Origin: Candidatus Poribacteria bacterium
GTDB taxonomy: Bacteria > Poribacteria > WGA-4E > WGA-3G
Length of the DNA: 64,000 bases
Reading direction: 5' to 3'
NCBI GenBank assembly: GCA_022823085.1
Contig: JAJDXV010000057.1
Span: forward strand, 19,891-83,890
The notes beneath the pieces are model-generated. The model saw only the letters and a list, made by a program, of their open reading frames with translations. It was not told the DNA's origin and ran no database searches. This document shows positions 13,896 to 49,783 of the stretch, piece by piece. Numbering within the stretch: the stretch's first letter is position 1; every line of letters begins with the position of its first letter. Both the position numbers and the translations under genes were made by a program.

Positions 13896-14090
13896 TCTGA
13901 GAACCGATAGGCGCGGTGACGAACCGCGCCTCCCGATAACTATTCTTCCAAAGGAAACAAGCCATTGGGAAAAAAGAAGATCGCATAGGATTGCTAACCT
14001 TTCATGGATCAACTGGCTCCTGATGTATTTGGACGAAAACAAGGAAACTATAGTTCCTTTAGGGAGTGGTCGAAAAAACCGTAGGCGGTA

Positions 14091-14125
14091 ACTGAACCGC
14101 GGGCGGTCCTGGACGTTGTGTCAGT
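14091..14125. repeat. 35-bp direct repeat, copy 1 (ACTGAACCGCGGGCGGTCCTGGACGTTGTGTCAGT)
   Basis: 33/35 identical to 23217-23251, which lies inside the coding sequence of the AlbA_2-like gene. Confidence 0.7.
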
Positions 14126-14178
14126 CCGGACGCGCCACTCCATGAACCCGTAAATCCCACTTTAAGCTAATTCATGTA

Positions 14179-14222
14179 ACTGCGGGTTATGTCTTGCACT
14201 AATTGCCAAGTTTTGTTAAAAT
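14179..14222 (+). promoter_or_regulatory. Sigma70-like promoter (TTGCAC-17nt-TAAAAT), 43 nt upstream of the PLD-SNF2 gene; duplicated at 26451-26495
   Basis: -35 TTGCAC (14194-14199), 17-nt spacer, -10 TAAAAT (14217-14222). A 44-bp block is near-identical to the one upstream of the DprA/SLOG-like gene. Confidence 0.5.
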
Positions 14223-14264
14223 ACAGGAACTACATTCAAACAGAGAGAAACGGACTATCACTAA

Positions 14265-17200
14265 ATGCCCCGTATTTTTGATAACATTGACCAATCACTC
14301 CTCCCCGCACTTCAACAAACACTCGAAAACGCTACACACGCAGATTTCTGCGTCGGCTATTTCAATCTCCGCGGCTGGCGAGGACTTGCCTCTTATGTTG
14401 AAAATTGGGACGGTGGCGAAGGCGAATGCTGCCGACTGCTCGTCGGCATGCAACGCTTACCCGAAGAAGAACTCCGAGAAACGATGCGGATTGCTAAAGA
14501 CGGTGGTATTGATAACCAGACAGCACTCTGTCTCAAACGGAGATTGGCAGAGGAGTTCCGCGAGCAGTTGACCATAGGCGTACCGACACGCCAAGATGAA
14601 ATAGGATTGCGTCAATTAGCGCGCCAACTTCGCGAAGAGAAGGTCCAGGTAAAACTCTTTCTTCGACACACGCTCCACGCAAAACTTTATCTGATTTATC
14701 GCGCTGACCTGATTACACCCACCGTAGGTTACCTCGGCAGTAGTAATCTAACGGTCTCCGGACTTTCACAACAGGGAGAGCTCAACGTTGATGTCGTTGA
14801 CGCAGACTCCTGTGAGAAGTTAGAGGACTGGTTTGAAAACCGTTGGAACGACCGGTGGTGCATCGATATTTCCAAAGAATTGGCAGAAATTATTGAGCAG
14901 AGTTGGGCGCGTGAGGAACTCATTCCGCCCTATCACATCTACGTGAAAATGGCGTATCATCTGTCGCAGGAAGCACGCGCAGGTTTGACTGAATTTCGGA
15001 TTCCACGCGAATTTGAGAACAAACTGTTTGAATTTCAAACCGCCGCCGTGAAAATTGCAGCGCATCACCTCAACAGACGCGGCGGTGTGCTCATAGGCGA
15101 TGTCGTCGGACTCGGTAAGACACTCATGGGAACGGCACTTGCACGGATACAAGAAGACGATTACGACCTCGAAACTTTGATTATCTGCCCGAAAAACCTT
15201 GTGAACATGTGGGAAGATTATCGTGAGGAATATCGCCTGCGCGGGCGGGTGCTCTCCATCAGCCAAGTGATCAATACTTTACCCGACCTCCGTCGCTATC
15301 GGCTCGTTATGATTGACGAAAGCCATAACCTCAGAAATCGTGAAGGCAAACGCTACCAAGCCATTCAGGAATATATCCACGAAAATGAGAGCAAAGTTAT
15401 CCTCCTCTCCGCAACGCCTTACAACAAAACCTATCTTGACCTCTCTAATCAACTCCGATTGTTCGTTGATGAAACCGAAGACCTCGGCATCCGTCCGGAG
15501 CAATACATCAAATCGTTAGGTGGTGTCATCGAATTTAATAGCAAACATCAGAGCGGTATCCGCACACTTCAAGCGTTTGAACACAGCGAGTATATTGACG
15601 ATTGGCGTGAACTGATGCGCCGCTATCTCGTGCGCCGAACGCGCAGCTTCATCATGGACAACTACGCTGAAACGGATCCCGAAACAAAACGGAAGTTCCT
15701 TCTGTTTTCAGACGGCACACCTTCCTACTTCCCGACACGTGTCCCGAAAACGATTACGTTCACAATTGATGATAAAGACCCGGACGACTCTTATGCGCAG
15801 CTATATTCGCCTTCTGTTGTGAACGTTATCAGCAGTCTGAAACTCGCTCGATACGGACTCGCAAATTATATTGTGGACACACCATCAGAACCACCAACGG
15901 AAGCAGAACAGCAGCAATTACAAGACCTGTCCCGCGGTGGACAACGCCTGATGGGGTTTTGCCGGACGAACCTTTTCAAACGGCTCGAAAGCAGTGGACA
16001 GGCGTTCATCCAATCCGTCGATCGCCATATCCTACGCAACTATATCTTTCTCCATGCGATTGAAAACGACGCACCGCTACCGATCGGATCGCAAAACGCT
16101 GAGATGCTCGACTCTCGGCTTGAAGACAGAGATACCGAAGATGCCACCCTTATCTTAGGCGTTTCCGGTGATGCCGATGACACGCAGATAGATGACACGG
16201 ATTCAGAGACAAGCACATACACACCCGATGCCTATAAACAACGTGCCGCCGAAATCTACGGACGCTACACAACGAAATATAAAAGTCGGTTTAGCTGGCT
16301 CTGTCCGAACCTCTTTCATCCGATGCTTCACAAGGATCTCACCGAAGACGCGATTGCACTCACTAAAGTCTTACAACAGGACGGTACGTGGGAGCCCGAA
16401 AAAGACGAAAAACTCAACGCACTTGAGACACTCTTAACCGAGACCCACCGGGAAGATAAGGTCTTGGTCTTCACGCAATTTGCGGATACCGTGAAATACC
16501 TAACGGATGCTCTCTCAGAACGCGGCATGACACATATCGCCGATGCAACCGGCGACTCAGCAGACCCTACCGCTTTAGCACACCGATTCAGTCCTGTCAG
16601 CAACGATAAACGGGACAGAATCAATTCAGAAGACGAGCTGCGCGTACTCATCAGTACGGATGTCCTCAGTGAAGGTCAAAATTTGCAAGATTGCGCAATC
16701 GTCGTCAACTATGATCTGCCATGGGCAATCATAAGGTTAGTCCAACGTGCAGGCAGAGTTGACCGGATTGGACAAATGGCAAAAGACATCTTGTGTTATT
16801 CGTTCCTACCTGCTGAAGGTGTGGAGCGTATTATCAACTTGCGCGGGCGCGTTCGTGCGCGTCTCCGGCAGAACGCTGAGGTTGTCGGTACGGATGAAGC
16901 CTTTTTTGAAGATGACGGTGAGGAAGGCAATGAGAGATTTGTTGATCTCTATAACGAAAGAGCAGGCTTACTTGACGATGCACAAGATAACGATGTGGAT
17001 CTCGCCTCTCACACCTACCAAATTTGGAAAAACGCCGTTACGCAGGATCCAAAATTAGAAAAAATTGTGCCTGCACTCCCGTCCGTTGTCTATTCAACGC
17101 AACCGCACACGCCAACCGATACCGAACCTGAGGGCGCGCTCGTCTATATCCGAACAGGACACGAAAACGACGCTTTGGCGTGGATAGCTCGAAACGGCGA

Positions 17201-17654
17201 AAGCGTAACGGAATCGCAGTTTGCAATCCTCCAAGCTGCGGCGTGTGAACCTGACACGGAGGCACTCCCACCGCTTGAAGCACATCACAACCTTGTGGAA
17301 GCAGCCGCAAAGTTAATCCTCTCTGAGGAGCGTTCCGTCGGCGGGCAGCTCGGACGACCCACCGGCGCACGGTTCCGTACTTATGAACGCCTAAAGGATT
17401 ATGCCTCAGAGGTAGAAGGGACGCTCTATAGCACGCCAGCACTTAAGCAGGTCATTGAAGCCATCTATCGCTATCCGCTGCGACAAGCAGCCACCGACAC
17501 CCTCAATCGCCAACTCCGTAGCGGTATTTCCAACGCCGACCTTGCTGCGTTAGTCATTGAACGGTGGGAGACAGAACGACTCTGTATCATTGAACAGGAG
17601 AGGCAAACACAAGAACCGCAGATCGTCTGCTCACTTGGACTTCGCACAACGTAA
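14265..17654 (+). CDS. Fusion of a PLD-family (HKD) nuclease domain and an SNF2/SF2 helicase
   Basis: N-terminus has 'HAKLYLIYRAD...GSSNLTVSG' (HKD-like motif with GSxN). Helicase motifs: I 'GDVVGLGKTLMG', II 'MIDESHNLRN', III 'LLSATPYNK', helicase-C 'LISTDVLSEGQNLQ', VI 'QRAGRVDRIGQ'. 1129 aa. Confidence 0.85.
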   Translation: MPRIFDNIDQSLLPALQQTLENATHADFCVGYFNLRGWRGLASYVENWDGGEGECCRLLVGMQRLPEEELRETMRIAKDGGIDNQTALCLKRRLAEEFREQLTIGVPTRQDEIGLRQLARQLREEKVQVKLFLRHTLHAKLYLIYRADLITPTVGYLGSSNLTVSGLSQQGELNVDVVDADSCEKLEDWFENRWNDRWCIDISKELAEIIEQSWAREELIPPYHIYVKMAYHLSQEARAGLTEFRIPREFENKLFEFQTAAVKIAAHHLNRRGGVLIGDVVGLGKTLMGTALARIQEDDYDLETLIICPKNLVNMWEDYREEYRLRGRVLSISQVINTLPDLRRYRLVMIDESHNLRNREGKRYQAIQEYIHENESKVILLSATPYNKTYLDLSNQLRLFVDETEDLGIRPEQYIKSLGGVIEFNSKHQSGIRTLQAFEHSEYIDDWRELMRRYLVRRTRSFIMDNYAETDPETKRKFLLFSDGTPSYFPTRVPKTITFTIDDKDPDDSYAQLYSPSVVNVISSLKLARYGLANYIVDTPSEPPTEAEQQQLQDLSRGGQRLMGFCRTNLFKRLESSGQAFIQSVDRHILRNYIFLHAIENDAPLPIGSQNAEMLDSRLEDRDTEDATLILGVSGDADDTQIDDTDSETSTYTPDAYKQRAAEIYGRYTTKYKSRFSWLCPNLFHPMLHKDLTEDAIALTKVLQQDGTWEPEKDEKLNALETLLTETHREDKVLVFTQFADTVKYLTDALSERGMTHIADATGDSADPTALAHRFSPVSNDKRDRINSEDELRVLISTDVLSEGQNLQDCAIVVNYDLPWAIIRLVQRAGRVDRIGQMAKDILCYSFLPAEGVERIINLRGRVRARLRQNAEVVGTDEAFFEDDGEEGNERFVDLYNERAGLLDDAQDNDVDLASHTYQIWKNAVTQDPKLEKIVPALPSVVYSTQPHTPTDTEPEGALVYIRTGHENDALAWIARNGESVTESQFAILQAAACEPDTEALPPLEAHHNLVEAAAKLILSEERSVGGQLGRPTGARFRTYERLKDYASEVEGTLYSTPALKQVIEAIYRYPLRQAATDTLNRQLRSGISNADLAALVIERWETERLCIIEQERQTQEPQIVCSLGLRTT

Positions 17655-17735
17655 CACTTGAAAAAATCTTGAACTTTACTGATACATCGTGTATAATTCA
17701 CCTAAACCTAATATCTTACTACACGGAGATTCCAA

Positions 17736-18065
17736 ATGAAAAAGCACGAAATTGTCGCCGGACACCACGTGAACGGTCGATTAATTGTCAAATCCATTGT
17801 GCCGCCAAATTCACTTGACTGGATCGAAAACCTGGAAACAGAAGAGTTCGTTGAATTTTTCGAGGAATTGCTCAAACAACTATCACAAATCTCAGAAGGA
17901 AAGAAAGACGCTGCAACACTCACAATTTTTCTCTCTGAATGGCGTGAAACCGCTCTAATCAACACAGAACCGGATGTCTTGTCAGATATTGCTGAGGCGG
18001 AGCGAGAATTGGACGCTGGTGGCGGAAAACCGTGGCCCCAAATCAAGAAGGAGATTGGGCTGTGA
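17736..18065 (+). CDS. Small hypothetical protein between the nuclease-helicase and the methyltransferase
   Basis: 109 aa with RBS 'GGAGA'. Acidic C-terminus 'AEAERELDAGGGKPWPQIKKEIGL' is reminiscent of antitoxin C-termini. No firm family assignment. Confidence 0.4.
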   Translation: MKKHEIVAGHHVNGRLIVKSIVPPNSLDWIENLETEEFVEFFEELLKQLSQISEGKKDAATLTIFLSEWRETALINTEPDVLSDIAEAERELDAGGGKPWPQIKKEIGL

Positions 18066-18137
18066 ACCGTCAGCCATACACCCTGGAGCCGCTGCCGCGA
18101 AAAGTCGAAAACTTCATCAAACTTATAGGAACCCTCA

Positions 18138-20738
18138 ATGTTGAACGAGCAAAATACACGCCAATATCTCAAAGAATCCGAATTTGAAGACCTCTTTACG
18201 CAAGAACTCGGTTGGGACCATCACAACGACCCCCTCAACATCACAGTAGACGAAACCACATATCAACTCACCGCAATCGCCCAAAAACGCGGAATGGTCG
18301 TCTTTGAATGTCCTGCAGAAGTTTTCCCCCCGGATAAGGGGGGCAGGGGGATTACGCGCATCCCTGATTACGCCACCCGACGCAAGATCCAAAAACAAGT
18401 TGCAAAATCTGTTCACGAACATTTTATCATCTACACCGACCCTGAGAAAACGACAGACATTTGGCAGTGGGTCAAACGCGAGCAAGGCAAACCCGACGCA
18501 TGCCGTGAACACCGCTATAACCGTGCCGAACAGTCCGGCGATTCTCTGATTCAAAAACTACAAACCATCGCCTTTACTTTTCAAGAGGAAGAGGACCTTT
18601 CACTTATTGACGTAACCGGACGCGTTGGGACTGCCTTTTACGCTGAACGAGTTACCAAGAAATTCTATGACCGTTTCAAGAAAGAGCATGACGCATTCCT
18701 TAAATTCCTCAGTGGTATTCCAGATGAAGAGATGCAAAAGTGGTACGTCTCTGTGATGCTCAACCGTCTGATGTTCATCTATTTTATCCAAAAGAAAAAT
18801 TTCCTTGATAACGACATAGACTATCTATGTACCAAACTGACTGAGAGTCAAGCGAATAGCACCAACCGGTACTACCGAGACTTCCTCTGTCCGCTCTTTT
18901 TTGAGGGGTTTGCGAAACCGGAAAACGAGCGGAGCAGAGAGATGAAACGCCTGCTCGGTAAAATCCCTTACCTCAACGGTGGTATCTTCCAACAACACCA
19001 ACTTGAGACGCTTCACGGCGAAAACATTGACATCCCTGATAAAGCATTTGAACAGATTTTTAACTTCTTTGAGCAATACGACTGGCACCTTGATGACCGT
19101 CCCCTACGCAACGACAACGAGATTAATCCTGATGTTCTCGGTTATATCTTCGAGAAATACATCAACCAGAAGCAGATGGGTGCGTACTACACCAAAGAGG
19201 ACATCACCGAGTACATCAGCAAAAACACGATAATTCCGTTCCTTTTTGACAAGGCAAAAAAAGCGTGCAAAATAGCGTTTGAAGGCGAGGCATCCGTCTG
19301 GAACTTGCTACAAGAAGACCCTGACCGCTACATCTATGATTCCGTCAAAAACGGAATCTACGATACTGATGGGGTAAAAAAAAATCTTCCATCAGAAATT
19401 GCTATCGGAATTGATGATGTTTCCAAGCGTACCGATTGGAACACACTCGCGGACCCCGATTATGCTTTACCAACAGAAATCTGGCGGGAGACCGTCGCAC
19501 GTCGGCAGCGTTATGAAACCGTCCGATCCAAACTCGCCAACGGAGAGGTCCGCGACATCAACGATCTGATTACCTACAACCTTGACATCCGCCAATTCGC
19601 ACAAGATGTTATCGAAAATTGTGAGGGCCCCGAACTGCTCCGCGCCTTCTGGAAAGCCATCACCGAAGTAACAATCTTGGATCCGACGTGTGGCTCCGGG
19701 GCGTTCCTCTTTGCTGCGCTCAACATCCTCGAACCACTTTACGAAGCATGCCTTGATCGGATGCAAGTTTTCCTTGATGAGACGGGAACGGTTTCCTCCC
19801 TGATAAGGGGGGCAGGGGGGTTAGAGGATACTCCTAAAAAACCGAACTCCCGTAGATACAACGACTTTCGCGAACTCCTTGATCGCATTGATGAACATCC
19901 CAACCGCAAATATTTTACCCTCAAATCCATCATTATCAACAATCTCTACGGCGTAGACATCATGGACGAGGCAATCGAAATCTGCAAGCTGCGCCTCTTC
20001 CTCAAAATGGTGGCGCAACTTGAAGACGTGAAACGGATTGAACCACTACCGGACATCGACTTTAACATCCAAGCAGGCAATACCCTCGTCGGTTATGCCA
20101 CTTATGATGCGGTGGAAAAACCGGAGAGACGCAGGCTTGATTTTGAAAATGCAATGAAGGGTATTAGAGAAAAAGCTGAGGATGTGAAGATTCTATTTCA
20201 GGAGTTTCGCAGGCAGCAGACAACATTAGGCGGTGCCGTGACATATGCGGACAAAAAGAATTTACAAGATAGACTTCGGGAATTAGAAGATGAGCTCAAC
20301 TTATATCTCGCTGAAGAATACGGCGTTGATTCGAACAAACAATCTGATTACGAAAACTGGCTAAATTCACATAAACCTTTTCATTGGTTCATTGCATTTT
20401 ACGATATTCTTGAAGACGGTGGATTTAATGTCATTATCGGCAATCCGCCGTATGTGGAGTATAGTGCGGTGAAGGATGAGTACACGATTAGAGGTTATAA
20501 AACAGAAAGTTGCGGTAACCTATACGCATTTGTGTTTGAAAGAGGCTTCCATCTTCTTCAGCGCAATGGTTGGAAATCAATGATAGTTCCACACTCAGTG
20601 TACTGTACCGATAGAATGGAATCCATCCAGAATCTATTTCATTGTTCTAAGCGAGTGGGGTGGGTTCAAACATATAGCATCCGTCCGGCAAAATTGTTTG
20701 TCGGAGCCGAACAACGGTTAGCGATTTATATTCTTTAG
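18138..20738 (+). CDS. Gamma-class N6-adenine DNA methyltransferase (Eco57I / Type IIG / PglX-like), truncated at codon 866 by a MITE insertion
   Basis: Motif I 'ILDPTCGSGAFLFAA'; motif IV 'GNPPYVEY'. The ORF terminates at a TAG created at the MITE boundary (20736-20738). The continuation is in the same frame at 20857..21599. Confidence 0.85.
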   Translation: MLNEQNTRQYLKESEFEDLFTQELGWDHHNDPLNITVDETTYQLTAIAQKRGMVVFECPAEVFPPDKGGRGITRIPDYATRRKIQKQVAKSVHEHFIIYTDPEKTTDIWQWVKREQGKPDACREHRYNRAEQSGDSLIQKLQTIAFTFQEEEDLSLIDVTGRVGTAFYAERVTKKFYDRFKKEHDAFLKFLSGIPDEEMQKWYVSVMLNRLMFIYFIQKKNFLDNDIDYLCTKLTESQANSTNRYYRDFLCPLFFEGFAKPENERSREMKRLLGKIPYLNGGIFQQHQLETLHGENIDIPDKAFEQIFNFFEQYDWHLDDRPLRNDNEINPDVLGYIFEKYINQKQMGAYYTKEDITEYISKNTIIPFLFDKAKKACKIAFEGEASVWNLLQEDPDRYIYDSVKNGIYDTDGVKKNLPSEIAIGIDDVSKRTDWNTLADPDYALPTEIWRETVARRQRYETVRSKLANGEVRDINDLITYNLDIRQFAQDVIENCEGPELLRAFWKAITEVTILDPTCGSGAFLFAALNILEPLYEACLDRMQVFLDETGTVSSLIRGAGGLEDTPKKPNSRRYNDFRELLDRIDEHPNRKYFTLKSIIINNLYGVDIMDEAIEICKLRLFLKMVAQLEDVKRIEPLPDIDFNIQAGNTLVGYATYDAVEKPERRRLDFENAMKGIREKAEDVKILFQEFRRQQTTLGGAVTYADKKNLQDRLRELEDELNLYLAEEYGVDSNKQSDYENWLNSHKPFHWFIAFYDILEDGGFNVIIGNPPYVEYSAVKDEYTIRGYKTESCGNLYAFVFERGFHLLQRNGWKSMIVPHSVYCTDRMESIQNLFHCSKRVGWVQTYSIRPAKLFVGAEQRLAIYIL

Positions 20739-20856
20739 GACTTACGCATATCGCTCTTTTGTACCACAATCTGTTAGATTGTGACGCAAAAACGCTGTGT
20801 TTTCAGAAGAATCTCATCTAACAGAGCCACCTATAGCCAAAAGTGCGTAAGTCCTG
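20736..20856. mobile_element. 121-bp MITE copy 1 with 13-bp terminal inverted repeats and 5-bp target-site duplication TTCTT, inserted in the methyltransferase gene
   Basis: Ends TAGGACTTACGCA...TGCGTAAGTCCTG. Direct repeats TTCTT at 20731-20735 and 20857-20861. Internal palindrome CACAATCTGTTAGATTGTG. About 85% identical to the copy at 49592-49713. Confidence 0.85.
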
Positions 20857-21599
20857 TTCTTCAACAAGGTTCAAAGCCGTCTGATATTTTATATGCTTCT
20901 CGCTATCACAGATGGCATAAACAGTTTCGCTCTCATCTCTTTGCAGTTACGGAACATGCAGATGTTACGCAGATGTCGTTTAAAAACTCGGTCACCAAAA
21001 TATACAGTAACGTTGAACAAAGCCTATGGAAGAAATTATCTCAATTCTCAGTTTTAGGTAACTACCTCATTAGAAGCAGAACTCCTTACACAGTACATTT
21101 CCATAATGCACCGCGTTACTGGATTCGGGCAATGGACTTCGCACCTTACTTCTGGAACGAGCGAGATGGGGAGAAAATATCAACTCAGGTCAAGCCCCTA
21201 TACTTAACAGCAGAATTGGATGCGACCGTAGTCGTAGCAGCTTTGAATAGTTCACTCTTTTATTGGTGGTATGTTATTCTCTCTGATTGTCGCCATTTGA
21301 ATCTACGCGAAATTAGAGGTTTTTGCATCGGAATTGATGAAATGGAGGCGAAGATAAAGCAAAGTCTTTCTCAAATTTCTGCTGACTTGATGGCGGATTT
21401 AAAACACCACGCGCACCGTAAGGAAACAAGTTACAAAACTACTGGCAAAGTAGTCTATGACGAATTTTTCCCACGTCACTCCAAATCCATCATAGACAAG
21501 ATTGACCGCGTGCTTGCCCAACACTACGGCTTCACAGACGAGGAATTAGATTTCATCATCAACTATGACATCAAGTATCGGATGAGCTTGGGAAATTGA
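20857..21599 (+). pseudogene. Displaced C-terminal (putative target-recognition) part of the methyltransferase
   Basis: Removing the MITE and one TSD copy joins '...LAIYIL' directly to 'QQGSKPSDILYASRYHRWHKQ...' in frame, giving about 1120 aa in total. The track ORF 20781..21599 starts inside the MITE. Confidence 0.75.
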
Positions 21600-21902
21600 C
21601 GCACCCATACGTGTGGATTTAGGGAAGATGCTCATCGTAGGTTGGGCTGAACGGACGGGATCGAAACATGGGCATCTAAAAGAAACAGTCTACAGACGAC
21701 ACGCCTCCTGTTGCTGCAGGGCACCGAGTGAAACCCAACACTATACCAAAAACGTTGAATACGCGAAAGTTGAAAATCCGCGTCATCCGATAAATCCGCG
21801 ATTCAGACGAAACACCCCTAACACACAGCCCCTAATAGTCTTCCCTTCTTCAGTTCTCGAAATTTGCTTGATAACCCTACCCAAACGTGATAAACTATAC
21901 GC

Positions 21903-22043
21903 ATGACACAAGCAGAAACACAACCGCCGCAAGTCGTCTTCTATCGCGAGCGGAGTGGGCGTGTTCCTATCCAAAACTGGCTTGATGGGTTGCCATTTGA
22001 ACAAAATCCTGCCCTTTACACGCAGGAGATCGATTATGCATGA
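21903..22043 (+). pseudogene. Truncated HigB/Gp49-like (RelE/ParE superfamily) toxin remnant (46 aa)
   Basis: 'MTQAETQPPQVVFYRERSGRVPIQNWLDGLP...' matches the characteristic N-terminus ('VVFYRTASGREPVREWLKSL') of Gp49/HigB-like toxins but stops after 46 aa. Its stop overlaps the start of the next gene (ATGCATGA). Confidence 0.4.
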
Positions 22044-22866
22044 TAAAAGAACCACGACAGATGCAGTAGAAATTATGCACCAACTCTTTATTAAGGGGGA
22101 TCCTGAAAAACTGGCTCGGCTGGAGGAGGAAGCGGTTAATTTTGAGATTTCGCTACATGTCTATGATTTACGTACCTCCGGCGGTCAAACACAAGAAGAA
22201 TTCGGAGAGATAGCCGGTGTGGATCCCCGCGTTATTGATGACCTTGAGGTAGCCGACTATGAAGGCGATTCGCTCGCCATGCTCGCGCGTATCGAAAAAG
22301 CGACATTGCCACATATTTCCGCCCTCAATTTTCCTGCAGAGGGAGTTTACCCGAACGCACTTATCGGCACAACCCTAACTGGGCTTAAACTCAGACGACT
22401 TCGATACTTACCTCACAGACAAGGCACCGACGATCCAACGGCACCCTTTACAACTCTCAGATTTAACCTGAAAACGCTGCAAGGTAGGCAGTATACGGCA
22501 AGTGAGCTCGCATCCTGGCTCCATGTGCTCAAAATGAACCGGCAGGAGTTGAACATGTTCGCGCTCGCTAAGTTGACAACCTGGAGCCATCTCGCTGGGG
22601 AGTTGCTTGTTAAACTTTCGGGCGATCCGATCGAATACATCCGGGCGGTGGATACGCATACGCAACTCATCCGCGCAGCCATATACTATCTTGAAGAAGG
22701 GGAACACACAGCGTTCAAACAGTGGCAACAAGATATCGGTCCGCAGGAAGAAAAACGTTACATCGTAGAATTGGAAGGATCCCTCCACGATAGAGCCTTT
22801 GTGGAACTCCCAGACACAGAGTGGTTGACGCAGACACTTATCACATTTATAAAGAGAGACTTTTAG
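22036..22866 (+). CDS. HTH (XRE/HigA-like) antitoxin-type regulator with a long C-terminal extension
   Basis: HTH region 'LRTSGGQTQEEFGEIAGVDPRVIDDLE'. The track ORF begins at 21955; the start at 22036 is preferred because of the overlap with the toxin remnant. Confidence 0.5.
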   Translation: MHDKRTTTDAVEIMHQLFIKGDPEKLARLEEEAVNFEISLHVYDLRTSGGQTQEEFGEIAGVDPRVIDDLEVADYEGDSLAMLARIEKATLPHISALNFPAEGVYPNALIGTTLTGLKLRRLRYLPHRQGTDDPTAPFTTLRFNLKTLQGRQYTASELASWLHVLKMNRQELNMFALAKLTTWSHLAGELLVKLSGDPIEYIRAVDTHTQLIRAAIYYLEEGEHTAFKQWQQDIGPQEEKRYIVELEGSLHDRAFVELPDTEWLTQTLITFIKRDF

Positions 22867-22997
22867 ATCAATACCTTCGCTAAACAATTGACAACAAGTT
22901 AGCCGAAATCAGAACCCGGAATTCGTCATCTGTCACAAAAATAGCAAAATTCAGCGCACGAACAACCACCGTCCCAATTAGATAACCGAAAAAGACT

Positions 22998-24380
22998 ATG
23001 GAAATCACCGATCTCAAACAACGCATCGCACAACGCGAAAATACCACAACCGAATTCAAAGAGAACTTCGATCAAGAAGTAATTGAGACCGCTGCTGCGT
23101 TTGCCAATACCGATGGCGGTACGATTCTTATTGGCGTATCTGATAGCGGAGAAATCAGAGGTATTACCATCGGCAAAGAGACGCTAAGAGATGTATCAAA
23201 CCGGATTTCGCAAGCGACTGAACCGCGGTCGGTCCTGGACGTTGCGTCAGTTGACGTAGAAGGAAAGTCATTGCTGTTGGTGCATATCTCGGAAGCTTCC
23301 ATAAAACCTGTTTCTGTTAGGGGAAGATGCTATAAGAGAATCGGAAATAGCAACCGCGTCATGTCCCCACAAGAGATTGCACAGATGCACCTCAACGCTA
23401 CCGGACAAACTTGGGATCAACTCTTAGTTACACGTGCTGGACTTGATGATATAGATGAGAAAAAAGTCGAATGGTATCTGACCCGTCGAGAGACAATCCG
23501 GAATGTGTCTATACCGCAAGATATGAACATGGCAGCGTTTTTGAAGAACATTAAGGGTATCAGCGATGACGGAACACCAACCCACGCGGGGCTTCTTTTT
23601 TTCAGTAAGCACTCGCTACTAAGATTCTTCCACAACGCGCAATTACGAGTCGTCAGATTCAAAGGAACATCTGTCACCCATCCGGTCCTTGATCGGCTTG
23701 ATTGCGGCGAGACGCTCTGGGAAAACGTCGAGACCGCCGAGGAATTTATAAGAAAAAACATCCGATTGCTCAGTTTTCGGACCTCAAGGCGTTTCCAAAG
23801 AGACGATAAGTTTGAATACCCGCTTAATGCACTACGGGAGGCAATAATCAACGCCTTGATTCACCGCAATTACCAAGAAACTGCGGATGTCCGGGTCTTT
23901 ATATTTGACAACCGCGTTGAGGTTATCAGTCCCGGCACTTTTCCAGAAGGTGTTAGTCCAGATGAACCGGCTCACAAACCGGTAAACCCTACTTTGAGTC
24001 AATTCATGTTTGATGTCGGTTTCATTGAACGGTACGGTGCCGGTATCAGGATGATGCAAAGGTTATGCAGGGAATGGGGAAACAAAGCACCGCGTTATGA
24101 ATTTCACCCGCTTGAAACCAAAATCATCTTTGATTCCCCGATTCAAGAGAGCACTTATATTGAAATTGACGACATTTCAGAGCAGTTGAACGAGCGTCAA
24201 AAGAATGCGTTTTTCTACGTGCAAAGAAACGGGCAAATCACAAGAAAGGAATACATAGAGATTAATCATGTCTCAGTCCGGATCGCCTATGAGGAACTAA
24301 GAGATCTAACAGACAAAGGATTATTACATGTAACAGGCAAGGGTAGAGGAACCAAGTACGTACAAAAGGTAAACGATTAG
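22998..24380 (+). CDS. AlbA_2 (Schlafen-like 'divergent AAA') + HATPase_c_4/wHTH domain protein
   Basis: N-terminus 'TTEFKENFDQEVIETAAAFANTDGGTILIGVSDSGEIRGI' is typical of the AlbA_2 domain. C-terminal 'ALREAIINALIHRNY' is the HATPase_c_4-type motif. Confidence 0.7.
   Translation: MEITDLKQRIAQRENTTTEFKENFDQEVIETAAAFANTDGGTILIGVSDSGEIRGITIGKETLRDVSNRISQATEPRSVLDVASVDVEGKSLLLVHISEASIKPVSVRGRCYKRIGNSNRVMSPQEIAQMHLNATGQTWDQLLVTRAGLDDIDEKKVEWYLTRRETIRNVSIPQDMNMAAFLKNIKGISDDGTPTHAGLLFFSKHSLLRFFHNAQLRVVRFKGTSVTHPVLDRLDCGETLWENVETAEEFIRKNIRLLSFRTSRRFQRDDKFEYPLNALREAIINALIHRNYQETADVRVFIFDNRVEVISPGTFPEGVSPDEPAHKPVNPTLSQFMFDVGFIERYGAGIRMMQRLCREWGNKAPRYEFHPLETKIIFDSPIQESTYIEIDDISEQLNERQKNAFFYVQRNGQITRKEYIEINHVSVRIAYEELRDLTDKGLLHVTGKGRGTKYVQKVND
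23217..23251. repeat. 35-bp direct repeat, copy 2 (inside the AlbA_2-like CDS, encoding 'TEPRSVLDVASV')
   Basis: 33/35 identical to 14091-14125. Confidence 0.7.
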
Positions 24381-24426
24381 GTAAACGATTAGGTAAGCAA
24401 TTCTAAAAGATCAGCGGGAGAAACAC

Positions 24427-25731
24427 ATGCCAAGACAAAAGGGTGAAGGTATCACCAAGATAGCCGTGAAGGGTTTCAAGTCCATCGCGGAGGAATGCGA
24501 AATCGACATTCGTCCGCTGACGATTCTTTCCGGTGCAAATAGTTCCGGGAAATCCAGCATCATGCAACCGCTCCTGATGCTGAAACAGACGCTGGAGGCA
24601 CCGTATGATCCGGGGCCGTTGTTGATTGATGGACCGAATGTTCAGTTTACTGAGGTGGCACAATTTTTATCCCAGTTAACCGGCGGAAAAAAAGCAGATT
24701 GTTTTCAGATACGAATTGATACTTGTGATTCTGATTTTGCTTACTCAGTGGAAACAACTTTCAAAAAAGGGAAGACCGGGCTTGAAATTGCCAAAATGAC
24801 AACTGAAGTGAGACAAGCTGCTCAACCATTACCTTTCAAACATTATACCCTATATCCTGAAATGTCGGCTGAAGAAATCAGCGCACTGGGTAGCCAAGGT
24901 CCAATGCGTAGTGATTTTAAGGCGGTGAAACGTTTACGTTGTTTTTTGGGTTTTGAATCTCAAGCAAGTGATCATCTCTTTAATGTTACCTACAACCCTG
25001 TTGAGGCTTACATTTTTGACAGTATCCATCTCCCCGGATTACGAGGCAATCCAGTACGCATCTACAAATTTACCAGCACCGGTCCCTTATACCCCGGCAT
25101 ATTTGAACATTATGCTGCAAGCATTATTCACGAATGGCAGGAAACAACAGATGAACGCCTGAAAACGTTAGTTGATGCCCTTCATACACTTGGATTGACA
25201 AGACAAGTTAGCACAAAAAAAATCGGTGATGTCGGCATTGAAATTCAGGTCGGTCGCCTTCTACACGACAACGCTGGCGAAACGGACCTGGTCAATATAG
25301 CTGATGTAGGCTTTGGAGTATCTCAAGTTTTGCCCGCTATAGTAGCATTGATTGTAGCGGAACCGGGACAATTGGTTTATCTCGAACAACCCGAGCTGCA
25401 CCTCCATCCGCGCGCCCAAGTGGCATTGGCGAGAGTATTAGCAGACGCGGCGAAACGGGGTGTCCGAGTTGTCGTCGAGACGCACAGTTCGCTACTGCTT
25501 TTGGGAGTTCAAACGCTTGTTGCCGAAGGAGACCTCCCGCCGGAATTAGTTAAGCTTCACTGGTTTTCACGGAACAAAGATGGGGTGACTGAAGTTGATA
25601 GCGTGGACTTAGACGAAGCAGGGACTTATGGGGATTGGTCCATGGATTTTGATGATGTCAGTCTTAGCGTGCAGAGTCGTTTTCTTGATGCCGTAGACAA
25701 TGTTAGATTTGGTGAAAAGGAGGCTTCGTGA
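24427..25731 (+). CDS. ABC-type (AAA_21/DUF3696-like) ATPase
   Basis: Walker A 'GANSSGKSS'; Walker B / D-loop region 'LVYLEQPELHLHPRAQVALARVLA...VVVETHSS'. 434 aa. Confidence 0.7.
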   Translation: MPRQKGEGITKIAVKGFKSIAEECEIDIRPLTILSGANSSGKSSIMQPLLMLKQTLEAPYDPGPLLIDGPNVQFTEVAQFLSQLTGGKKADCFQIRIDTCDSDFAYSVETTFKKGKTGLEIAKMTTEVRQAAQPLPFKHYTLYPEMSAEEISALGSQGPMRSDFKAVKRLRCFLGFESQASDHLFNVTYNPVEAYIFDSIHLPGLRGNPVRIYKFTSTGPLYPGIFEHYAASIIHEWQETTDERLKTLVDALHTLGLTRQVSTKKIGDVGIEIQVGRLLHDNAGETDLVNIADVGFGVSQVLPAIVALIVAEPGQLVYLEQPELHLHPRAQVALARVLADAAKRGVRVVVETHSSLLLLGVQTLVAEGDLPPELVKLHWFSRNKDGVTEVDSVDLDEAGTYGDWSMDFDDVSLSVQSRFLDAVDNVRFGEKEAS

Positions 25732-26261
25732 GATCAAGAAATTCAAAACGATTAGTAATTGACACAGATGTTGCCCAAGCGTCTGGTGATGAGGCAGCAA
25801 CCGATCCACGGGCTATCAATTGTCGTGATTTCCTAAAGGAAGTAAGGACTCAAGATCATAGGGTGGTGATGACGAGAGAAATCAGCGACGAGTGGAAAAG
25901 ACATCAATCTCACTTTGCCTTTGAGTGGCGGGTGTCAATGGATGCGCGTAGAAAAATAGACCGCATCAATCCACCAGAATATGCAGAGATCCAAGCCAAA
26001 GTCACAAACACAACAAGCGATGAAGATGAGATTGAAGCTCTACAAAAAGATTTTCACCTTCTCCAAGCAGCACTCACAACCGATCAAACGGTTATTTCAC
26101 TGGACGAAACCGTCCGAGGACTTTTTGCACATGCGTCCCAACAGGTCGGCGAAATCCAGCACATCATCTGGGTCAACCCAGATAGAACAGCAGAAGAACA
26201 ACCCATCGCTTGGCTCCAAAACGGCGCACTACCTGAAGCACATCGTCAACTTTCCGCTTGA
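25728..26261 (+). CDS. Small partner protein of the ATPase (177 aa; possible PIN-like/nuclease fold)
   Basis: GTG start overlapping the ATPase stop (GTGA). Strong RBS 'AAAAGGAGG' 5 nt upstream. N-terminal 'RLVIDTDVAQ' resembles the first strand and acidic residues of PIN-like domains. Confidence 0.5.
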   Translation: MRSRNSKRLVIDTDVAQASGDEAATDPRAINCRDFLKEVRTQDHRVVMTREISDEWKRHQSHFAFEWRVSMDARRKIDRINPPEYAEIQAKVTNTTSDEDEIEALQKDFHLLQAALTTDQTVISLDETVRGLFAHASQQVGEIQHIIWVNPDRTAEEQPIAWLQNGALPEAHRQLSA

Positions 26262-26450: not shown

Positions 26451-26495
26451 ACTGCAAGTTATATTCTTGCACTAATTACCAAGTTTTGTTATAGT
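26451..26495 (+). promoter_or_regulatory. Sigma70-like promoter (TTGCAC-17nt-TATAGT), a duplicate of the 14179-14222 block
   Basis: -35 at 26467-26472, 17-nt spacer identical except for 1 nt, -10 at 26490-26495. Lies upstream of the DprA/SLOG-like gene. Confidence 0.5.
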
Positions 26496-26624
26496 AAAAC
26501 CCATAATTATTTCTACACGCGGTAGGGATCGTAGGAATTGGGTAACCCAACCCGTACAAACTGTCATGTGAAGTTCATATCGCGAAGGGTGAACATATTT
26601 TGGATCCTATTATAAGGATGAGAA

Positions 26625-28216: not shown

Positions 28217-28236
28217 TCTAAACATATAAGCAGGAT

Positions 28237-28380
28237 ATGTATACTTTTTGGCGATTTTTATACATATCGGCACTGATATGTATAATTTGTATACATATCG
28301 ATCCGGACATGTATACTTTTTGGCAATTTCTATACATATCGGCACTGATATGTATAATTTGTATACATACTGATTTGCTC
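28237..28380. repeat. Two tandem 72-bp units, each an imperfect palindrome (ATGTATAC...TATACATATCGGCACTGATATGTATA...GTATACAT), between convergent genes
   Basis: Unit 1 is 28237-28308 and unit 2 is 28309-28380, about 93% identical. Each has 9-bp arms TATACATAT/ATATGTATA and terminal inverted 8-mers. Confidence 0.8.
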
Positions 28381-41853: not shown

Positions 41854-41996
41854 GAATAACTTGATCGTGTTACTCTACCAAAGCAATTTTCTTTGACATC
41901 TCTTTTTTCGTGTGGTATAATTTTCGTTCAGTTTGTTAGGGTAAGTAGGAGAAATTGACTACAATTCTGTAATATCTCAGGAGCAAAATGTAAGTA

Positions 41997-42353
41997 ATGG
42001 ATACCGAATTGACAACCAAGGACTATGAAATGCTTATCACAATGCTGGACGATTTGATTGATGTCGTTGGTGAGAACGAAAATCACGTCTTGGCCCCGTT
42101 GATGGATCTCATTGGTAACCTCATTGAGAAATGTAGAGCCGAAATTGAAGAGGATAATGAGGAGGGATTTGGTATGAAGGTCCGAAATTATCCTTTGGGT
42201 ACAGGCATGCCCAAACCCCATCGCCCTGAAAAGGTGGGTCGTCCGGCGAATCTTCCGCGCGTGAAACTGGCGGACCTCTTAGCACAAGAAACCGATGATA
42301 CCGCGTCCGAGGAGATAGACACCGGGCCTCCGGTCGGTAATGAAGTATGGTAG
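41997..42353 (+). CDS. Small acidic hypothetical protein
   Basis: 118 aa with no recognisable motifs. Confidence 0.3.
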   Translation: MDTELTTKDYEMLITMLDDLIDVVGENENHVLAPLMDLIGNLIEKCRAEIEEDNEEGFGMKVRNYPLGTGMPKPHRPEKVGRPANLPRVKLADLLAQETDDTASEEIDTGPPVGNEVW

Positions 42354-42545
42354 CAGCAACCCAGTACGATCCGGAATATGTCCCGGTGCGCGGGGACATC
42401 GTATGGATTATAGTGGATTCTACAATTAACTTTACATCTGAGCGGTAGGAGGGAACTCCGATTCCCGACTATTATTGGTTGCGTCGCGATTCGGAGATCG
42501 CTCCTACAGAATATATGTAAACTTATTTACATAATTTACTATAAT

Positions 42546-48598: not shown

Positions 48599-49591
48599 AT
48601 GGAAGTTTACCGTTGGGAAGAACGCAAATTTGGGAGGCTGGAGCCGCTACGTTTCAGCGAAGAACGCGAGTTTGAGGACCTCCTTGAAAAAGACGCAACA
48701 CTCGTTCTCGGTGAACCGCTCTGTATTATCAGTAGGCAACCGCCACTCAGTACCTCGAAACAGAAGATTGACCTACTCGCGCTCGATCGGCAAGGAAATT
48801 GTGTGATTATTGAACTCAAGCGCGGCAAACCGTCTCGGACAGCAATCACACAGATTTTGGAGTACGCCGCCGGTGTCTCCCAACTCTCTTTCATAGAATT
48901 AGAGCAGCTCGCTTACCGATGGTGTCAACAGCAAGGGAAAGAATTCTCAACACTCACCGCCATGCACAGCGAATTCTTTGGATATGAACCGGGCGATATT
49001 CGCAAATCCGCATTCAACCAGAAACAGCGATTGGTACTTATTTCGGAAGGCGTAGACACACGCGTCTTAGAAGTCGCCGAATACCTGCGAGCCTTGGGGT
49101 TGGACCTCACCTATATCTCCTATTTTTCCTATCATGCACCAGACGAGATTTTAGTCGCGACCGAAACTGTACTCGGTGGCACAATCGTTAAGGAAGAAGA
49201 ACGGAACTATGGCGGCCGCACCACGCAGCAGTTTATGACGCTCACATCGTTTGTTGAGCTGCTGCAAGTGAACGAAGAACTCCTACAGGTCGCGAATGAG
49301 TTCGTTGAATACGTTGACACATGCGGTGCCACGCTGCGACCGCGCATCGCAAAACTCCGAATGACGATCGGGGGACGCTGGTGGCTCGACACGTACCCCT
49401 CAAGAAGAGCCACACATTTCCGTGTCGATGTACACGGCGATTTCACACCACTCCACATCGTTGAGTGCAGAGCCAACTTGCCGAACGTGACCGTCAAAAA
49501 TTTCGGTATCTCTTTCAATGTCGCGACCAAAGCACATCTTGACTATGCGATTGAAATTTTTGAACGCGTTCGCAACGCTATCCTTTTCTAA
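48599..49591 (+). CDS. Hypothetical protein with N-terminal PD-(D/E)xK-like (NucS/DUF91-type) nuclease motif
   Basis: 'IDLLALDRQGNCVIIELKRGK' shows the D...E-x-K pattern. Confidence 0.45.
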   Translation: MEVYRWEERKFGRLEPLRFSEEREFEDLLEKDATLVLGEPLCIISRQPPLSTSKQKIDLLALDRQGNCVIIELKRGKPSRTAITQILEYAAGVSQLSFIELEQLAYRWCQQQGKEFSTLTAMHSEFFGYEPGDIRKSAFNQKQRLVLISEGVDTRVLEVAEYLRALGLDLTYISYFSYHAPDEILVATETVLGGTIVKEEERNYGGRTTQQFMTLTSFVELLQVNEELLQVANEFVEYVDTCGATLRPRIAKLRMTIGGRWWLDTYPSRRATHFRVDVHGDFTPLHIVECRANLPNVTVKNFGISFNVATKAHLDYAIEIFERVRNAILF

Positions 49592-49713
49592 TAGGACTTA
49601 CGCATGCTCCTCTTTATGTACCACAATCTGTTAGATTGTGTTCCAAAAACGCTGTGTTTTCCGAAAAATTTCATCTAACAAAACGAACTATAGTCAAAAT
49701 TGCGTAAGTCCTA
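49592..49713. mobile_element. 122-bp MITE copy 2 with TIRs TAGGACTTACGCA/TGCGTAAGTCCTA and TSD TCTAA
   Basis: TSD at 49587-49591 and 49714-49718; the first TSD copy overlaps the stop codon of the 48599..49591 gene. Same internal palindrome as copy 1. Confidence 0.85.
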
Positions 49714-49783
49714 TCTAAGAGATATTGACAGCTAAGTTGTAACACAAACTTTCAGTTTATCGCATATACAACGCAAACTAAAA

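What the first reader, a model, noticed from the sequence alone, without database searches (positions are those of the whole stretch)
20731..20861. 121-bp MITE splits the methyltransferase gene in frame; a second copy sits at 49592-49713
Seen in sequence: two roughly 85%-identical 121/122-bp elements with 13-bp terminal inverted repeats (TAGGACTTACGCA / TGCGTAAGTCCTR) and an internal palindrome CACAATCTGTTAGATTGTG. Each is flanked by a 5-bp direct duplication (TTCTT at 20731-35 and 20857-61; TCTAA at 49587-91 and 49714-18). Deleting copy 1 plus one TSD joins '...RLAIYIL' to 'QQGSKPSDILYASRYHRWHKQ...' and restores one continuous methyltransferase ORF. Element plus TSD is 126 bp (42 codons), so the frame is preserved but stop codons are introduced. 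Inference: a non-autonomous transposable element that recently inactivated or truncated the modification gene of a defence system. Copy 2 landed exactly on the stop codon of a PD-(D/E)xK-like gene.
Basis: seen in the sequence. Interest (0 to 1): 0.7.

Follow-up and report, generated by a model that had tools for sequence, protein, structure and literature searches.

The report
MITE insertion splits a restriction-modification gene
A 121-bp non-coding jumping element with ends identical to those of IS701/ISPlag1-type insertion sequences has landed inside, and truncated, the methyltransferase/specificity gene of a helicase-nuclease defence cassette in a sponge-symbiont (Poribacteria) genome; this is real and well supported, but an ordinary kind of event.

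Summary
Two 121/122-bp elements, 87% identical, sit at 20736-20856 and 49592-49713. Both have 13-bp terminal inverted repeats (TAGGACTTACGCA), and each is flanked by a 5-bp duplication.

Removing copy 1 plus one duplication restores a 1111-aa ORF. That ORF matches a Type IIG restriction-methylase model end to end. A roughly 97%-identical sister strain carries the exact empty site. All 39 full-length homologues aligned are contiguous at the junction.

Copy 2 sits directly after a stop codon and is present in all five sister-strain assemblies that cover the site.

The family has at least 49 distinct members, in Poribacteria MAGs and in metagenome contigs. The same 13-nt ends bound roughly 110-140-bp elements in many phyla, and 88 of 122 of these have perfect 5-bp duplications. 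The same ends also bound three different full-length IS701-family insertion sequences, including ISPlag1.

No transposase partner was found in Poribacterial DNA, and the source genome could not be scanned.

Verdict: a new MITE family of a known kind that recently disrupted a defence gene. Interest is low to moderate.

The parts
20736..20856 (+). MITE copy 1 (121 bp), inserted within the methyltransferase gene
   Evidence: Absent from sister-strain loci L119 and L120. Member of the Poribacterial family (E = 2.6e-31).
20731..20735 (.). Left copy of the 5-bp target-site duplication TTCTT of copy 1
   Evidence: The empty site in L119 has a single TTCTT.
20857..20861 (.). Right copy of the 5-bp target-site duplication TTCTT of copy 1
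20765..20783 (+). Internal hairpin of copy 1 (CACAAT-CTGTTAG-ATTGTG)
   Evidence: Across 49 family members, two stem positions carry several compensatory pair types.
18138..20738 (+). 5' fragment of the methyltransferase gene (866 aa). It ends at the TAG formed by the first three bases of the MITE.
   Evidence: The exact 866-aa product is on record as P0017.
20862..21599 (+). 3' fragment of the methyltransferase gene (245 codons plus stop). It is in the same frame as the 5' fragment and encodes the C-terminal, presumed target-recognition, part.
   Evidence: The reconstructed ORF matches PADLOC PDLC03628 over residues 2-1108 of 1111.
14265..17654 (+). Intact PLD(HKD)-SNF2 helicase gene (1129 aa), first gene of the cassette
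   Evidence: The same three-gene arrangement is found in L187 and L188.
17736..18065 (+). Small 109-aa ORF between the helicase and methyltransferase genes; no family match
   Evidence: A 109-aa gene occupies the same position in L187.
49592..49713 (+). MITE copy 2 (122 bp), intergenic, immediately after a stop codon
   Evidence: Present in sister-strain loci L121-L124 and L126.
49587..49591 (.). Left copy of the 5-bp duplication TCTAA of copy 2; it contains the TAA stop of ORF 48599-49591
49714..49718 (.). Right copy of the 5-bp duplication TCTAA of copy 2
48599..49591 (+). 330-aa NucS_C-like / PDC-S11 gene upstream of copy 2; it remains intact

Best explanation
The two elements are copies of a miniature inverted-repeat transposable element (MITE), a non-coding, non-autonomous DNA transposon. 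The family is abundant in Candidatus Poribacteria, which are sponge symbionts.

Its 13-nt ends (YAGGACTTACGCA) are those of the ISPlag1 clade of IS701-family insertion sequences. The inferred mechanism is as follows. A DDE transposase of that clade, encoded elsewhere, binds the two ends and excises or copies the element. It then inserts the element at a 5-bp staggered cut in AT-rich DNA, and gap repair produces the 5-bp duplication.

Copy 1 inserted at codon 866/867 of a 1111-aa Eco57I/MmeI-type N6-adenine methyltransferase. This position lies after the catalytic NPPY region and before the C-terminal part. That part is inferred to be the target-recognition domain. The first three bases of the element (TAG) terminate translation there.

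The protein is the third gene of a PLD-SNF2 helicase / small gene / methyltransferase defence cassette. Losing its C-terminal 245 residues most likely abolishes methylation. It probably abolishes target recognition for the whole system as well, which would explain why the insertion is tolerated.

The insertion postdates the split from a sister strain that is about 97% identical. Copy 2 is older, sits harmlessly after a stop codon, and is present in all five sister-strain assemblies that cover the site.

Shown here: the structure of the element, the duplications, the empty site, the family and its distribution, and the identity of its ends with full-length IS701-type elements.

Inferred: mobilisation in trans, loss of function, and tolerance of the insertion.
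For: Structure:
- Terminal inverted repeats and 5-bp duplications are present at both copies.

Restoration of the gene:
- Removing the element plus one duplication gives an uninterrupted 1111-aa ORF.
- That ORF matches PADLOC REase_MTase_IIG model PDLC03628 over residues 2-1108, model positions 3-1095 of 1100, at 1111 bits. It also matches Pfam Eco57I at 2.4e-25.

Empty site and homologues:
- L119 and L120 align to window 18609-20735 and 20857-25596 with a 5-bp overlap. They read ...ATTTATATTCTTCAACAAGG....
- All 39 full-length homologues aligned are contiguous at RLAIYIL|QQ.

Family:
- nhmmer finds 18 members at E < 1e-20. Fourteen are in loci titled Poribacteria, two are in L068 ('uncultured bacterium') and two are in the window.
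- A left-end pattern finds 56 metagenome stretches. Of these, 39 are complete elements, and 25 of the 39 have perfect 5-bp duplications.
- In the 49-member alignment, none except copy 1 clearly interrupts a long ORF.

Wider class:
- In 88 of 122 elements a perfect 5-bp duplication lies exactly 2 nt outside GGAC. Other offsets and lengths score near zero, apart from a 3-bp sub-window of the same duplication.
- The duplications are 80% A+T.

Link to transposases:
- ISPlag1 (1306 bp, L128) has the ends CAGGACTTACGCA...TGCGTAAGTCCTG.
- Its transposase scores 408 bits on NCBIfam NF049921, 'IS701 family transposase', against a cut-off of 250.
- Two further full-length elements have the same 13-nt ends. 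One is 1531 bp, with a transposase 66% identical to that of ISPlag1. The other is about 1.1 kb, with a transposase 43% identical.
- The 1531-bp element has perfect 5-bp duplications at 4 of 10 places.

Organism:
- Window proteins cluster at 90% identity or more with proteins named Candidatus Poribacteria bacterium.
Against: - The source genome beyond the window could not be scanned.
- The MITEs share only the terminal 13 nt with the three full-length elements. No longer subterminal similarity was found, so no parent element is identified.
- ISPlag1 itself shows no duplication at 7 full-length copies. These lie in rearranged plasmids or on short repeat-collapsed contigs.
- Loss of function is inferred only. 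The 3' fragment lies in an ORF that could start at a GTG inside the element (20781), so a split enzyme is not excluded.
Confidence: 0.85

Rival explanations
1. The gene is not inactivated but split. The 866-aa N-terminal methyltransferase part and a separately translated C-terminal part would assemble into an active enzyme. The C-terminal part could start at GTG 20781 inside the element or at a downstream ATG. This would resemble systems that have separate modification and specificity subunits.
For: ORF 20781-21599 (272 aa) begins inside the element and continues in the gene's frame. The frame is preserved because element plus duplication is 126 bp. Both halves are free of further lesions, and the helicase gene is intact at 1129 aa, the same length as in L187.
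Against: All 39 full-length homologues aligned encode one polypeptide across this point. No promoter-like site lies in the element. The break falls inside a conserved stretch (SIRPAKLFVGAEQRLAIYIL|QQ...YASRYHRW), not at a linker. Intact halves are equally expected after a recent insertion.
Confidence: 0.08
2. The elements are primarily host-selected structured modules, for example transcript-end stabilisers or protein-binding hairpins that spread by transposition. On this reading the hit in the methyltransferase gene is a by-product.
For: The internal hairpin keeps pairing through several compensatory types. Columns 35:52 read AU 32, GC 13 and GU 2. Columns 36:48 read AU 30, GC 9, CG 4, GU 3 and UA 2. 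Overall 98% of cells are paired, against 17-41% in slid controls. In 22 of 48 members one pair is U-G, which pairs on one strand only. Copy 2 sits directly after a stop codon. Flanking ORFs are co-oriented 16:7 upstream and 16:8 downstream.
Against: The orientation bias is weak and rests on crude stop-to-stop ORFs. There is no Rfam match and no terminator-like site in the element. Family members are related, so shared inheritance within subfamilies inflates the covariation counts. The hairpin could equally serve transposition.
Confidence: 0.1
3. The insertion is a conserved, programmed feature of this methyltransferase family, such as an attenuator, an intein- or intron-like element, or a recoding site.
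For: Only that element plus duplication is a multiple of three (126 bp) and that both in-frame stops are TAG.
Against: It is absent from all 39 full-length homologues aligned and from a sister strain about 97% identical. The same element occurs at unrelated, mostly intergenic sites with their own duplications. Family lengths vary from about 120 to 129 bp, so about one in three insertions would preserve the frame by chance. No tRNA gene, suppressor or otherwise, lies in the window.
Confidence: 0.01
4. The element is a REP/REPIN-type palindromic repeat moved by a RAYT (IS200/IS605-like) enzyme, or some other mobile repeat that does not use a DDE transposase.
For: The element is small, has strong self-complementarity and is present in high copy number.
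Against: REPINs do not make target duplications. Here 88 of 122 elements have exact 5-bp duplications at a fixed offset. The ends are identical to those of three full-length elements that encode IS701-family DDE transposases.
Confidence: 0.02

Closest known systems
ISPlag1 (IS701 family) of Planktothrix agardhii and its deletion derivatives (Christiansen et al. 2008, PMC2464740)
   Same: The outer 13 nt of the ends are identical: CAGGACTTACGCA in ISPlag1 against T/CAGGACTTACGCA here. Planktothrix also carries shortened non-coding derivatives of 428 and 812 bp on plasmids, and the paper describes 197-bp remnants. In that paper the element is linked to loss of a gene cluster.
   Different: ISPlag1 is 1306 bp and encodes a 337-aa transposase. 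Beyond the 13 nt, its 29-bp inverted repeats and its interior are unrelated to the Poribacterial element. No duplication was seen at 7 ISPlag1 copies. The host phylum is different.
Bacterial MITEs in general, for example the Correia elements of Neisseria (my own knowledge, not tested here)
   Same: They are about 100-150 bp, have terminal inverted repeats, lack coding capacity, occur in many dispersed and mostly intergenic copies, occasionally disrupt genes, and fold stably.
   Different: As I recall, Correia elements have 26-bp repeats and a TA duplication, and their transposase is unknown. Here the ends are 13 nt, the duplication is 5 bp, and the ends point to an identifiable transposase clade.
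Type IIG / MmeI-Eco57I-type restriction-modification proteins, and PglX / DrmMI of BREX and DISARM
   Same: The restored protein matches a PADLOC Type IIG model end to end. It has weaker partial matches to DrmMI and PglX and to Pfam Eco57I, MmeI_Mtase and N6_Mtase. It carries the NPPY motif (GNPPYVEY, seen in the sequence).
   Different: It is always paired with an upstream PLD-SNF2 helicase and a small gene. This is unlike a single-polypeptide Type IIG enzyme. No solved relative is detectable by sequence. No nuclease motif in its N-terminus was tested.

Membership tests
MITE (miniature inverted-repeat transposable element) | Short element without coding capacity | tested here: met
   The copies are 121 and 122 bp, and family members are about 120-129 bp.
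MITE (miniature inverted-repeat transposable element) | Terminal inverted repeats | tested here: met
   The 13-nt ends pair in 98% of cells across 48 distinct members.
MITE (miniature inverted-repeat transposable element) | Target-site duplication of fixed length | tested here: met
   The duplication is 5 bp at both window copies. It is perfect in 88 of 122 genome elements and 25 of 39 metagenome elements.
MITE (miniature inverted-repeat transposable element) | Multiple dispersed copies at unrelated sites | tested here: met
   There are 18 strong members in genome loci and 56 metagenome stretches, giving 49 distinct aligned members.
MITE (miniature inverted-repeat transposable element) | Insertion polymorphism (occupied and empty alleles) | tested here: met
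   The copy 1 site is empty in L119 and L120, with a single TTCTT. Copy 2 is present in all five sister loci that cover the site.
MITE (miniature inverted-repeat transposable element) | Autonomous partner with matching ends in the same genome | not testable with these tools
No transposase was found in about 0.3 Mb of Poribacterial loci or in 56 metagenome loci.
Derivative of the IS701 family, ISPlag1 clade (NCBIfam NF049921) | Ends identical to those of full-length elements of the clade | tested here: met
   The ends match 13 of 13 nt with ISPlag1, with a 1531-bp element and with an element of about 1.1 kb. Their transposases are 43-66% identical to that of ISPlag1.
Derivative of the IS701 family, ISPlag1 clade (NCBIfam NF049921) | Same duplication length as the full-length elements | tested here: inconclusive
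   The 1531-bp element has 5-bp duplications at 4 of 10 places. ISPlag1 has none at 7 copies. The 1.1-kb element shows none clearly. Many of these contigs are short and repeat-collapsed.
Derivative of the IS701 family, ISPlag1 clade (NCBIfam NF049921) | Subterminal or internal similarity to a parent element | tested here: not met
   No alignment of 25 nt or more was found between any of the roughly 120 short genome-scan elements and the two longer full-length elements, ISPlag1 and the 1531-bp element. The true parent, if it still exists, is not among them.
Type IIG restriction-modification enzyme | Full-length similarity to the family model, with an N6-adenine methyltransferase motif | tested here: met
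   The restored protein matches PDLC03628 over 2-1108 of 1111 residues at 1111 bits. Pfam Eco57I scores 90 bits. NPPY is present.
Type IIG restriction-modification enzyme | Nuclease and methyltransferase in one polypeptide that acts alone | not tested
   The N-terminal nuclease motif was not examined. The conserved upstream PLD-SNF2 helicase suggests that cleavage may be supplied in trans.

The most novel reading that the evidence does not exclude
The ~120-bp elements bounded by the invariant ends YAGGACTTACGCA may form one cross-domain class. They were seen in Poribacteria, many cyanobacteria, Chloroflexota, Bacteroidota, Acidobacteriota, Proteobacteria, Parcubacteria and the archaeon Methanosarcina. 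Within this class, the Poribacterial family carries a hairpin that covaries and pairs on one strand only. That would make it a selected RNA or single-strand DNA structure rather than neutral filler. In that reading, the in-frame insertion in the methyltransferase gene, interrupted only by amber codons, could act as a reversible or leaky switch of a defence system's specificity component.
Probability: 0.06. Interest if true: 0.6.

Novelty: new member of a known kind. Interest (0 to 1): 0.3.

Why it matters
- It documents an undescribed, abundant MITE family in Poribacteria. No open-access paper in the library quotes these ends apart from the ISPlag1 report. It also ties the family to an identifiable transposase clade through its ends.
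- It shows how a defence cassette decays in an uncultured symbiont. In two strains about 97% identical, the same cassette is broken in two different ways: by a MITE insertion here, and by a deletion fusion of helicase and methyltransferase in the sister strain.
- It matters for annotation. The 866-aa product on record is a truncated pseudogene fragment, and the short repeats break assemblies (N gap in L125).
- None of this changes current understanding of MITEs or of restriction-modification systems.

Tried and rejected
- Rfam at gathering threshold on the whole window and at E <= 1 on the copy 1 region: no match.
- Search for a full-length element in the held loci by pairing ends 300-4000 bp apart: only neighbouring MITEs were found. 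For example, L114 has two MITEs flanking a grpE-like gene.
- Regular-expression search for the transposase signature R[WY]x[IVL]Exx[FHY]xxxK in all six frames of all loci: nothing.
- tblastn against all Poribacterial and metagenome loci, using the ISPlag1 transposase and 39 distant full-length representatives: only cyanobacterial remnants were found (L114, L011). Hits of P0317 came from an unrelated fused domain.
- Metagenome hits that lacked a right end were examined as possible parents. They are contig-end truncations, solo left ends beside ordinary genes, elements with a second small insertion nested in the hairpin (L153, L169), or a tandem amplification of the hairpin unit (L155).
- Naming of distant transposase representatives gave Bacteroidota or no name, and no Poribacteria.
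- BLAST of the short genome-scan elements against two full-length elements: no subterminal similarity.
- Promoter and terminator scans: nothing inside either copy.
- Orientation relative to flanking ORFs: a weak, non-significant bias.
- Sequence search of solved structures with the restored methyltransferase: no hit.
- tRNA scan for a possible amber suppressor: no tRNA gene in the window.
Full report
**The observation**

- Copy 1 is 20736-20856 (121 bp) and copy 2 is 49592-49713 (122 bp).
- They are 87% identical.
- Both start with TAGGACTTACGCA. Copy 1 ends with TGCGTAAGTCCTG and copy 2 with TGCGTAAGTCCTA.
- The 13-mer occurs in the 64-kb window only at these four ends, against 0.84 expected by chance.
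- Copy 1 is flanked by TTCTT on both sides and copy 2 by TCTAA on both sides.
- The internal palindrome CACAATCTGTTAGATTGTG is present in both copies, at 20765-20783 and 49622-49640.
- As single strands, both copies fold much better than shuffled sequence (z = -4.1 to -6.2).

**The interrupted gene**

ORF 18138-20738 (866 aa) stops at the TAG formed by the first three bases of copy 1. The same frame resumes after the element. Removing 20736-20861 (126 bp) gives a 1111-aa ORF with no internal stop.

The restored protein matches the PADLOC Type IIG restriction-methyltransferase model PDLC03628 in a single stretch. The match covers residues 2-1108 and model positions 3-1095 of 1100, at 1111 bits. 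It also matches Pfam Eco57I, MmeI_Mtase and N6_Mtase, and it carries GNPPYVEY. The insertion lies after this catalytic region and before the last 245 residues. I infer that these residues hold the target-recognition part.

Upstream lie an intact 1129-aa PLD(HKD)-SNF2 helicase gene (14265-17654) and a 109-aa ORF. The order helicase / small gene / methyltransferase recurs around two intact homologues, in L187 and L188. The unit is therefore a three-gene defence cassette, not a lone methyltransferase.

**Evidence that this is an insertion and not a feature of the gene**

A protein search returned many full-length homologues of 1077-1147 aa. All 39 full-length homologues that I aligned read straight through ...RLAIYIL|QQ(G/S)SKP... 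or its equivalent.

One of them, P0002, is 98% identical over the region it shares. Its DNA (L119 and L120, a sister strain about 97% identical) aligns to window 18609-20735 and again from 20857 onward. The two alignments overlap by 5 bp. The sister sequence reads ...ATTTATATTCTTCAACAAGG..., which is the exact empty site with one TTCTT.

Copy 2 is present at the same place in five sister-strain loci (L121-L124 and L126). A sixth locus, L125, has a run of N there, as expected for a repeat that breaks assemblies. Copy 2 is therefore older and shared by all the related strains examined, while copy 1 is polymorphic and recent. The helicase gene and both halves of the methyltransferase gene carry no other lesion, which fits a recent event.

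**The family**

The loci come from:
- Candidatus Poribacteria (32 loci)
- many cyanobacteria
- Chloroflexota
- Bacteroidota
- Acidobacteriota
- several Proteobacteria
- Parcubacteria
- Candidatus Moduliflexus
- three Methanosarcina assemblies

Only the Poribacterial elements resemble the window copies along their whole length. An iterated nhmmer search gave 18 members at E < 1e-20. Fourteen are in loci titled Poribacteria, two are in L068 ('uncultured bacterium') and two are in the window. A few cyanobacterial elements matched weakly.

A metagenome scan with a left-end pattern specific to the family found 56 stretches, and 33 of them come from a single WGS project, MKWU01. I recall this to be a sponge metagenome, but that is unverified. 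Of the 56, 39 are complete elements, and 25 of the 39 have perfect 5-bp duplications.

Window proteins cluster at 90% identity or more with proteins named Candidatus Poribacteria bacterium. The source is therefore a Poribacteria genome.

**Signature of transposition**

Across the 122 short elements from the genome scan, a perfect direct repeat occurs in 88 cases when it is taken as 5 bp starting exactly 2 nt outside GGAC. Other offsets and lengths score near zero, apart from a 3-bp sub-window of the same duplication. The element therefore ends in Y-A-GGAC... on each side, and the outermost base is T or C independently at the two ends. The duplicated pentamers are 80% A+T, and the last position is A or T in 83 of 88.

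**Which transposase**

The only relevant paper containing the end sequence describes ISPlag1 of Planktothrix. It assigns ISPlag1 to the IS701 group and gives its inverted repeats as CAGGACTTACGCAAGCACGCTATATATAG.

I recovered ISPlag1 from a Planktothrix plasmid (L128, 3001-4306, 1306 bp). Its ends are CAGGACTTACGCA...TGCGTAAGTCCTG. Its 337-aa transposase scores 408 bits on NCBIfam NF049921, 'IS701 family transposase', against a cut-off of 250.

Two further full-length elements have the same 13-nt ends:
- One is 1531 bp, and its transposase is 66% identical to that of ISPlag1.
- The other is about 1.1 kb, and its transposase is 43% identical.

The 1531-bp element has perfect 5-bp duplications at 4 of 10 places. 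ISPlag1 copies show none at 7 copies. Those copies lie in rearranged plasmids or on contigs barely longer than the element. One pair of copies has exchanged flanks (AATTAGA), which suggests recombination between copies.

These ends are thus a hallmark of this transposase clade. The clade is very large, with 7258 proteins at E <= 1e-10 among the 8000 candidates scored and 1517 representative clusters at E <= 1e-10. That accounts for the wide taxonomic spread of the short elements.

**What is missing**

I found no transposase of this clade in any Poribacterial DNA available to me. The short elements share nothing beyond the 13 nt with the full-length elements in hand. The autonomous partner is therefore identified only at the level of family, and mobilisation in trans is an inference. 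The source genome outside the window could not be scanned.

**Structure inside the element**

In an alignment of 49 distinct members, the internal hairpin keeps pairing while its sequence changes. Two stem positions show three to five pair types, and 98% of cells pair, against 17-41% when partners are slid. One position is U-G in 22 of 48 members, which pairs on one strand only.

This suggests selection on a single-stranded structure. The members are related, however, and the hairpin could serve transposition as well as any host function. No promoter-like or terminator-like site lies in either copy. There is no Rfam match. The bias towards co-orientation with neighbouring ORFs is weak. Apart from copy 1, none of the 49 members clearly interrupts a long ORF. 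That fits selection against insertions within genes and tolerance of this one in a dispensable gene.

**Consequence**

The most likely outcome is loss of the methyltransferase/specificity protein, and with it loss of the whole cassette's activity. If target recognition resides in the lost C-terminal part, restriction would fail together with modification, so the insertion would not be lethal. This is inference.

A split but functional enzyme is not excluded, because an ORF starting at GTG 20781 inside the element continues into the 3' fragment. The 126-bp, frame-preserving length is expected by chance about one time in three, given the family's range of lengths.

**Comparison and verdict**

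This is a MITE in every testable respect, with ends of the ISPlag1 clade of the IS701 family. It is a new family in a phylum where none seems to have been described in the searchable literature. The kind of element is well known, and so is the kind of event, a gene knocked out by a MITE.

Noticed in passing
L119 10001-13330 (also L120), compared with window 14090-20735: In the sister strain the same cassette is broken in a different way. The called 1109-aa product P0002 is an in-frame fusion of helicase residues 367-507 to methyltransferase residues from about 158 onward. Window 14239-15361 and 15787-18608 are therefore missing there. It could be a real deletion or a metagenome assembly artefact. 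It appears in both ENA and Logan assemblies, possibly of the same sample.
   Followed up: partly
window 42410-42548, within 41879-42818: A different palindromic element of about 139 bp splits a mazF/pemK-like toxin ORF (...GDIVWI | DPQTGNEIPKRRPALVLS...). Its arms are 63 nt long and 75% complementary. The whole 940-bp block 41879-42818 is absent from sister strains L122, L124 and L126.
   Followed up: partly
window 14192-14223 and 26465-26496: A 32-nt direct repeat is 91% identical between the two sites, and similarity extends to about 45 nt. It reads like a sigma-70 promoter: TTGCAC, 17 nt, TAAAAT. It sits upstream of the helicase gene and again upstream of the DprA-like gene, so it brackets the 12.3-kb defence block of helicase, methyltransferase, Schlafen/AlbA and AAA_15 genes.
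   Followed up: partly
window 14091-14125 and 23217-23251: A 35-nt direct repeat, 94% identical (ACTGAACCGCGGGCGGTCCTGGACGTTGTGTCAGT). One copy lies upstream of the helicase gene and the other inside the Schlafen/AlbA_2 gene. Unexplained.
   Followed up: no
window 18323-18354 and 19792-19823: A 32-nt repeat, 91% identical (TTTCCCCCCGGATAAGGGGGGCAGGGGGATTA), occurs twice inside the methyltransferase gene. It encodes PPDKGGRGI in one copy and IRGAGGLED in the other frame context. Unexplained.
   Followed up: no
window 22998-26261: Further defence-type genes lie directly downstream of the cassette. They are a Schlafen/AlbA_2 plus HATPase_c_4 protein (460 aa), an AAA_15/AAA_21 ATPase matching PADLOC NsnB (434 aa), and a 177-aa ORF with no match. 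The same genes occur near the cassette in L187 and L188, in a different order.
   Followed up: partly
L153 2203-2443, L169 2678-2886, L155 3216-3391: Some family members have a second small element nested in the hairpin loop (L153 and L169, 241 and 209 bp). One member, L155, has a tandem amplification of the hairpin unit.
   Followed up: no
window 28233-28374: Two tandem 70-72-bp units, 93% identical, are rich in the palindrome TATACATATCGGCACTGATATGTATA (families D9 and I6). They lie between convergent or overlapping ORFs. Not examined.
   Followed up: no
window 855-2891 (minus strand) and 43027-43286: One long ORF has a 126-bp (42-codon) periodic repeat, which is WD40-like by period. A second region has 102-bp TPR-like repeats. 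This fits the repeat-protein-rich genomes reported for Poribacteria, which is my own knowledge and was not tested.
   Followed up: no
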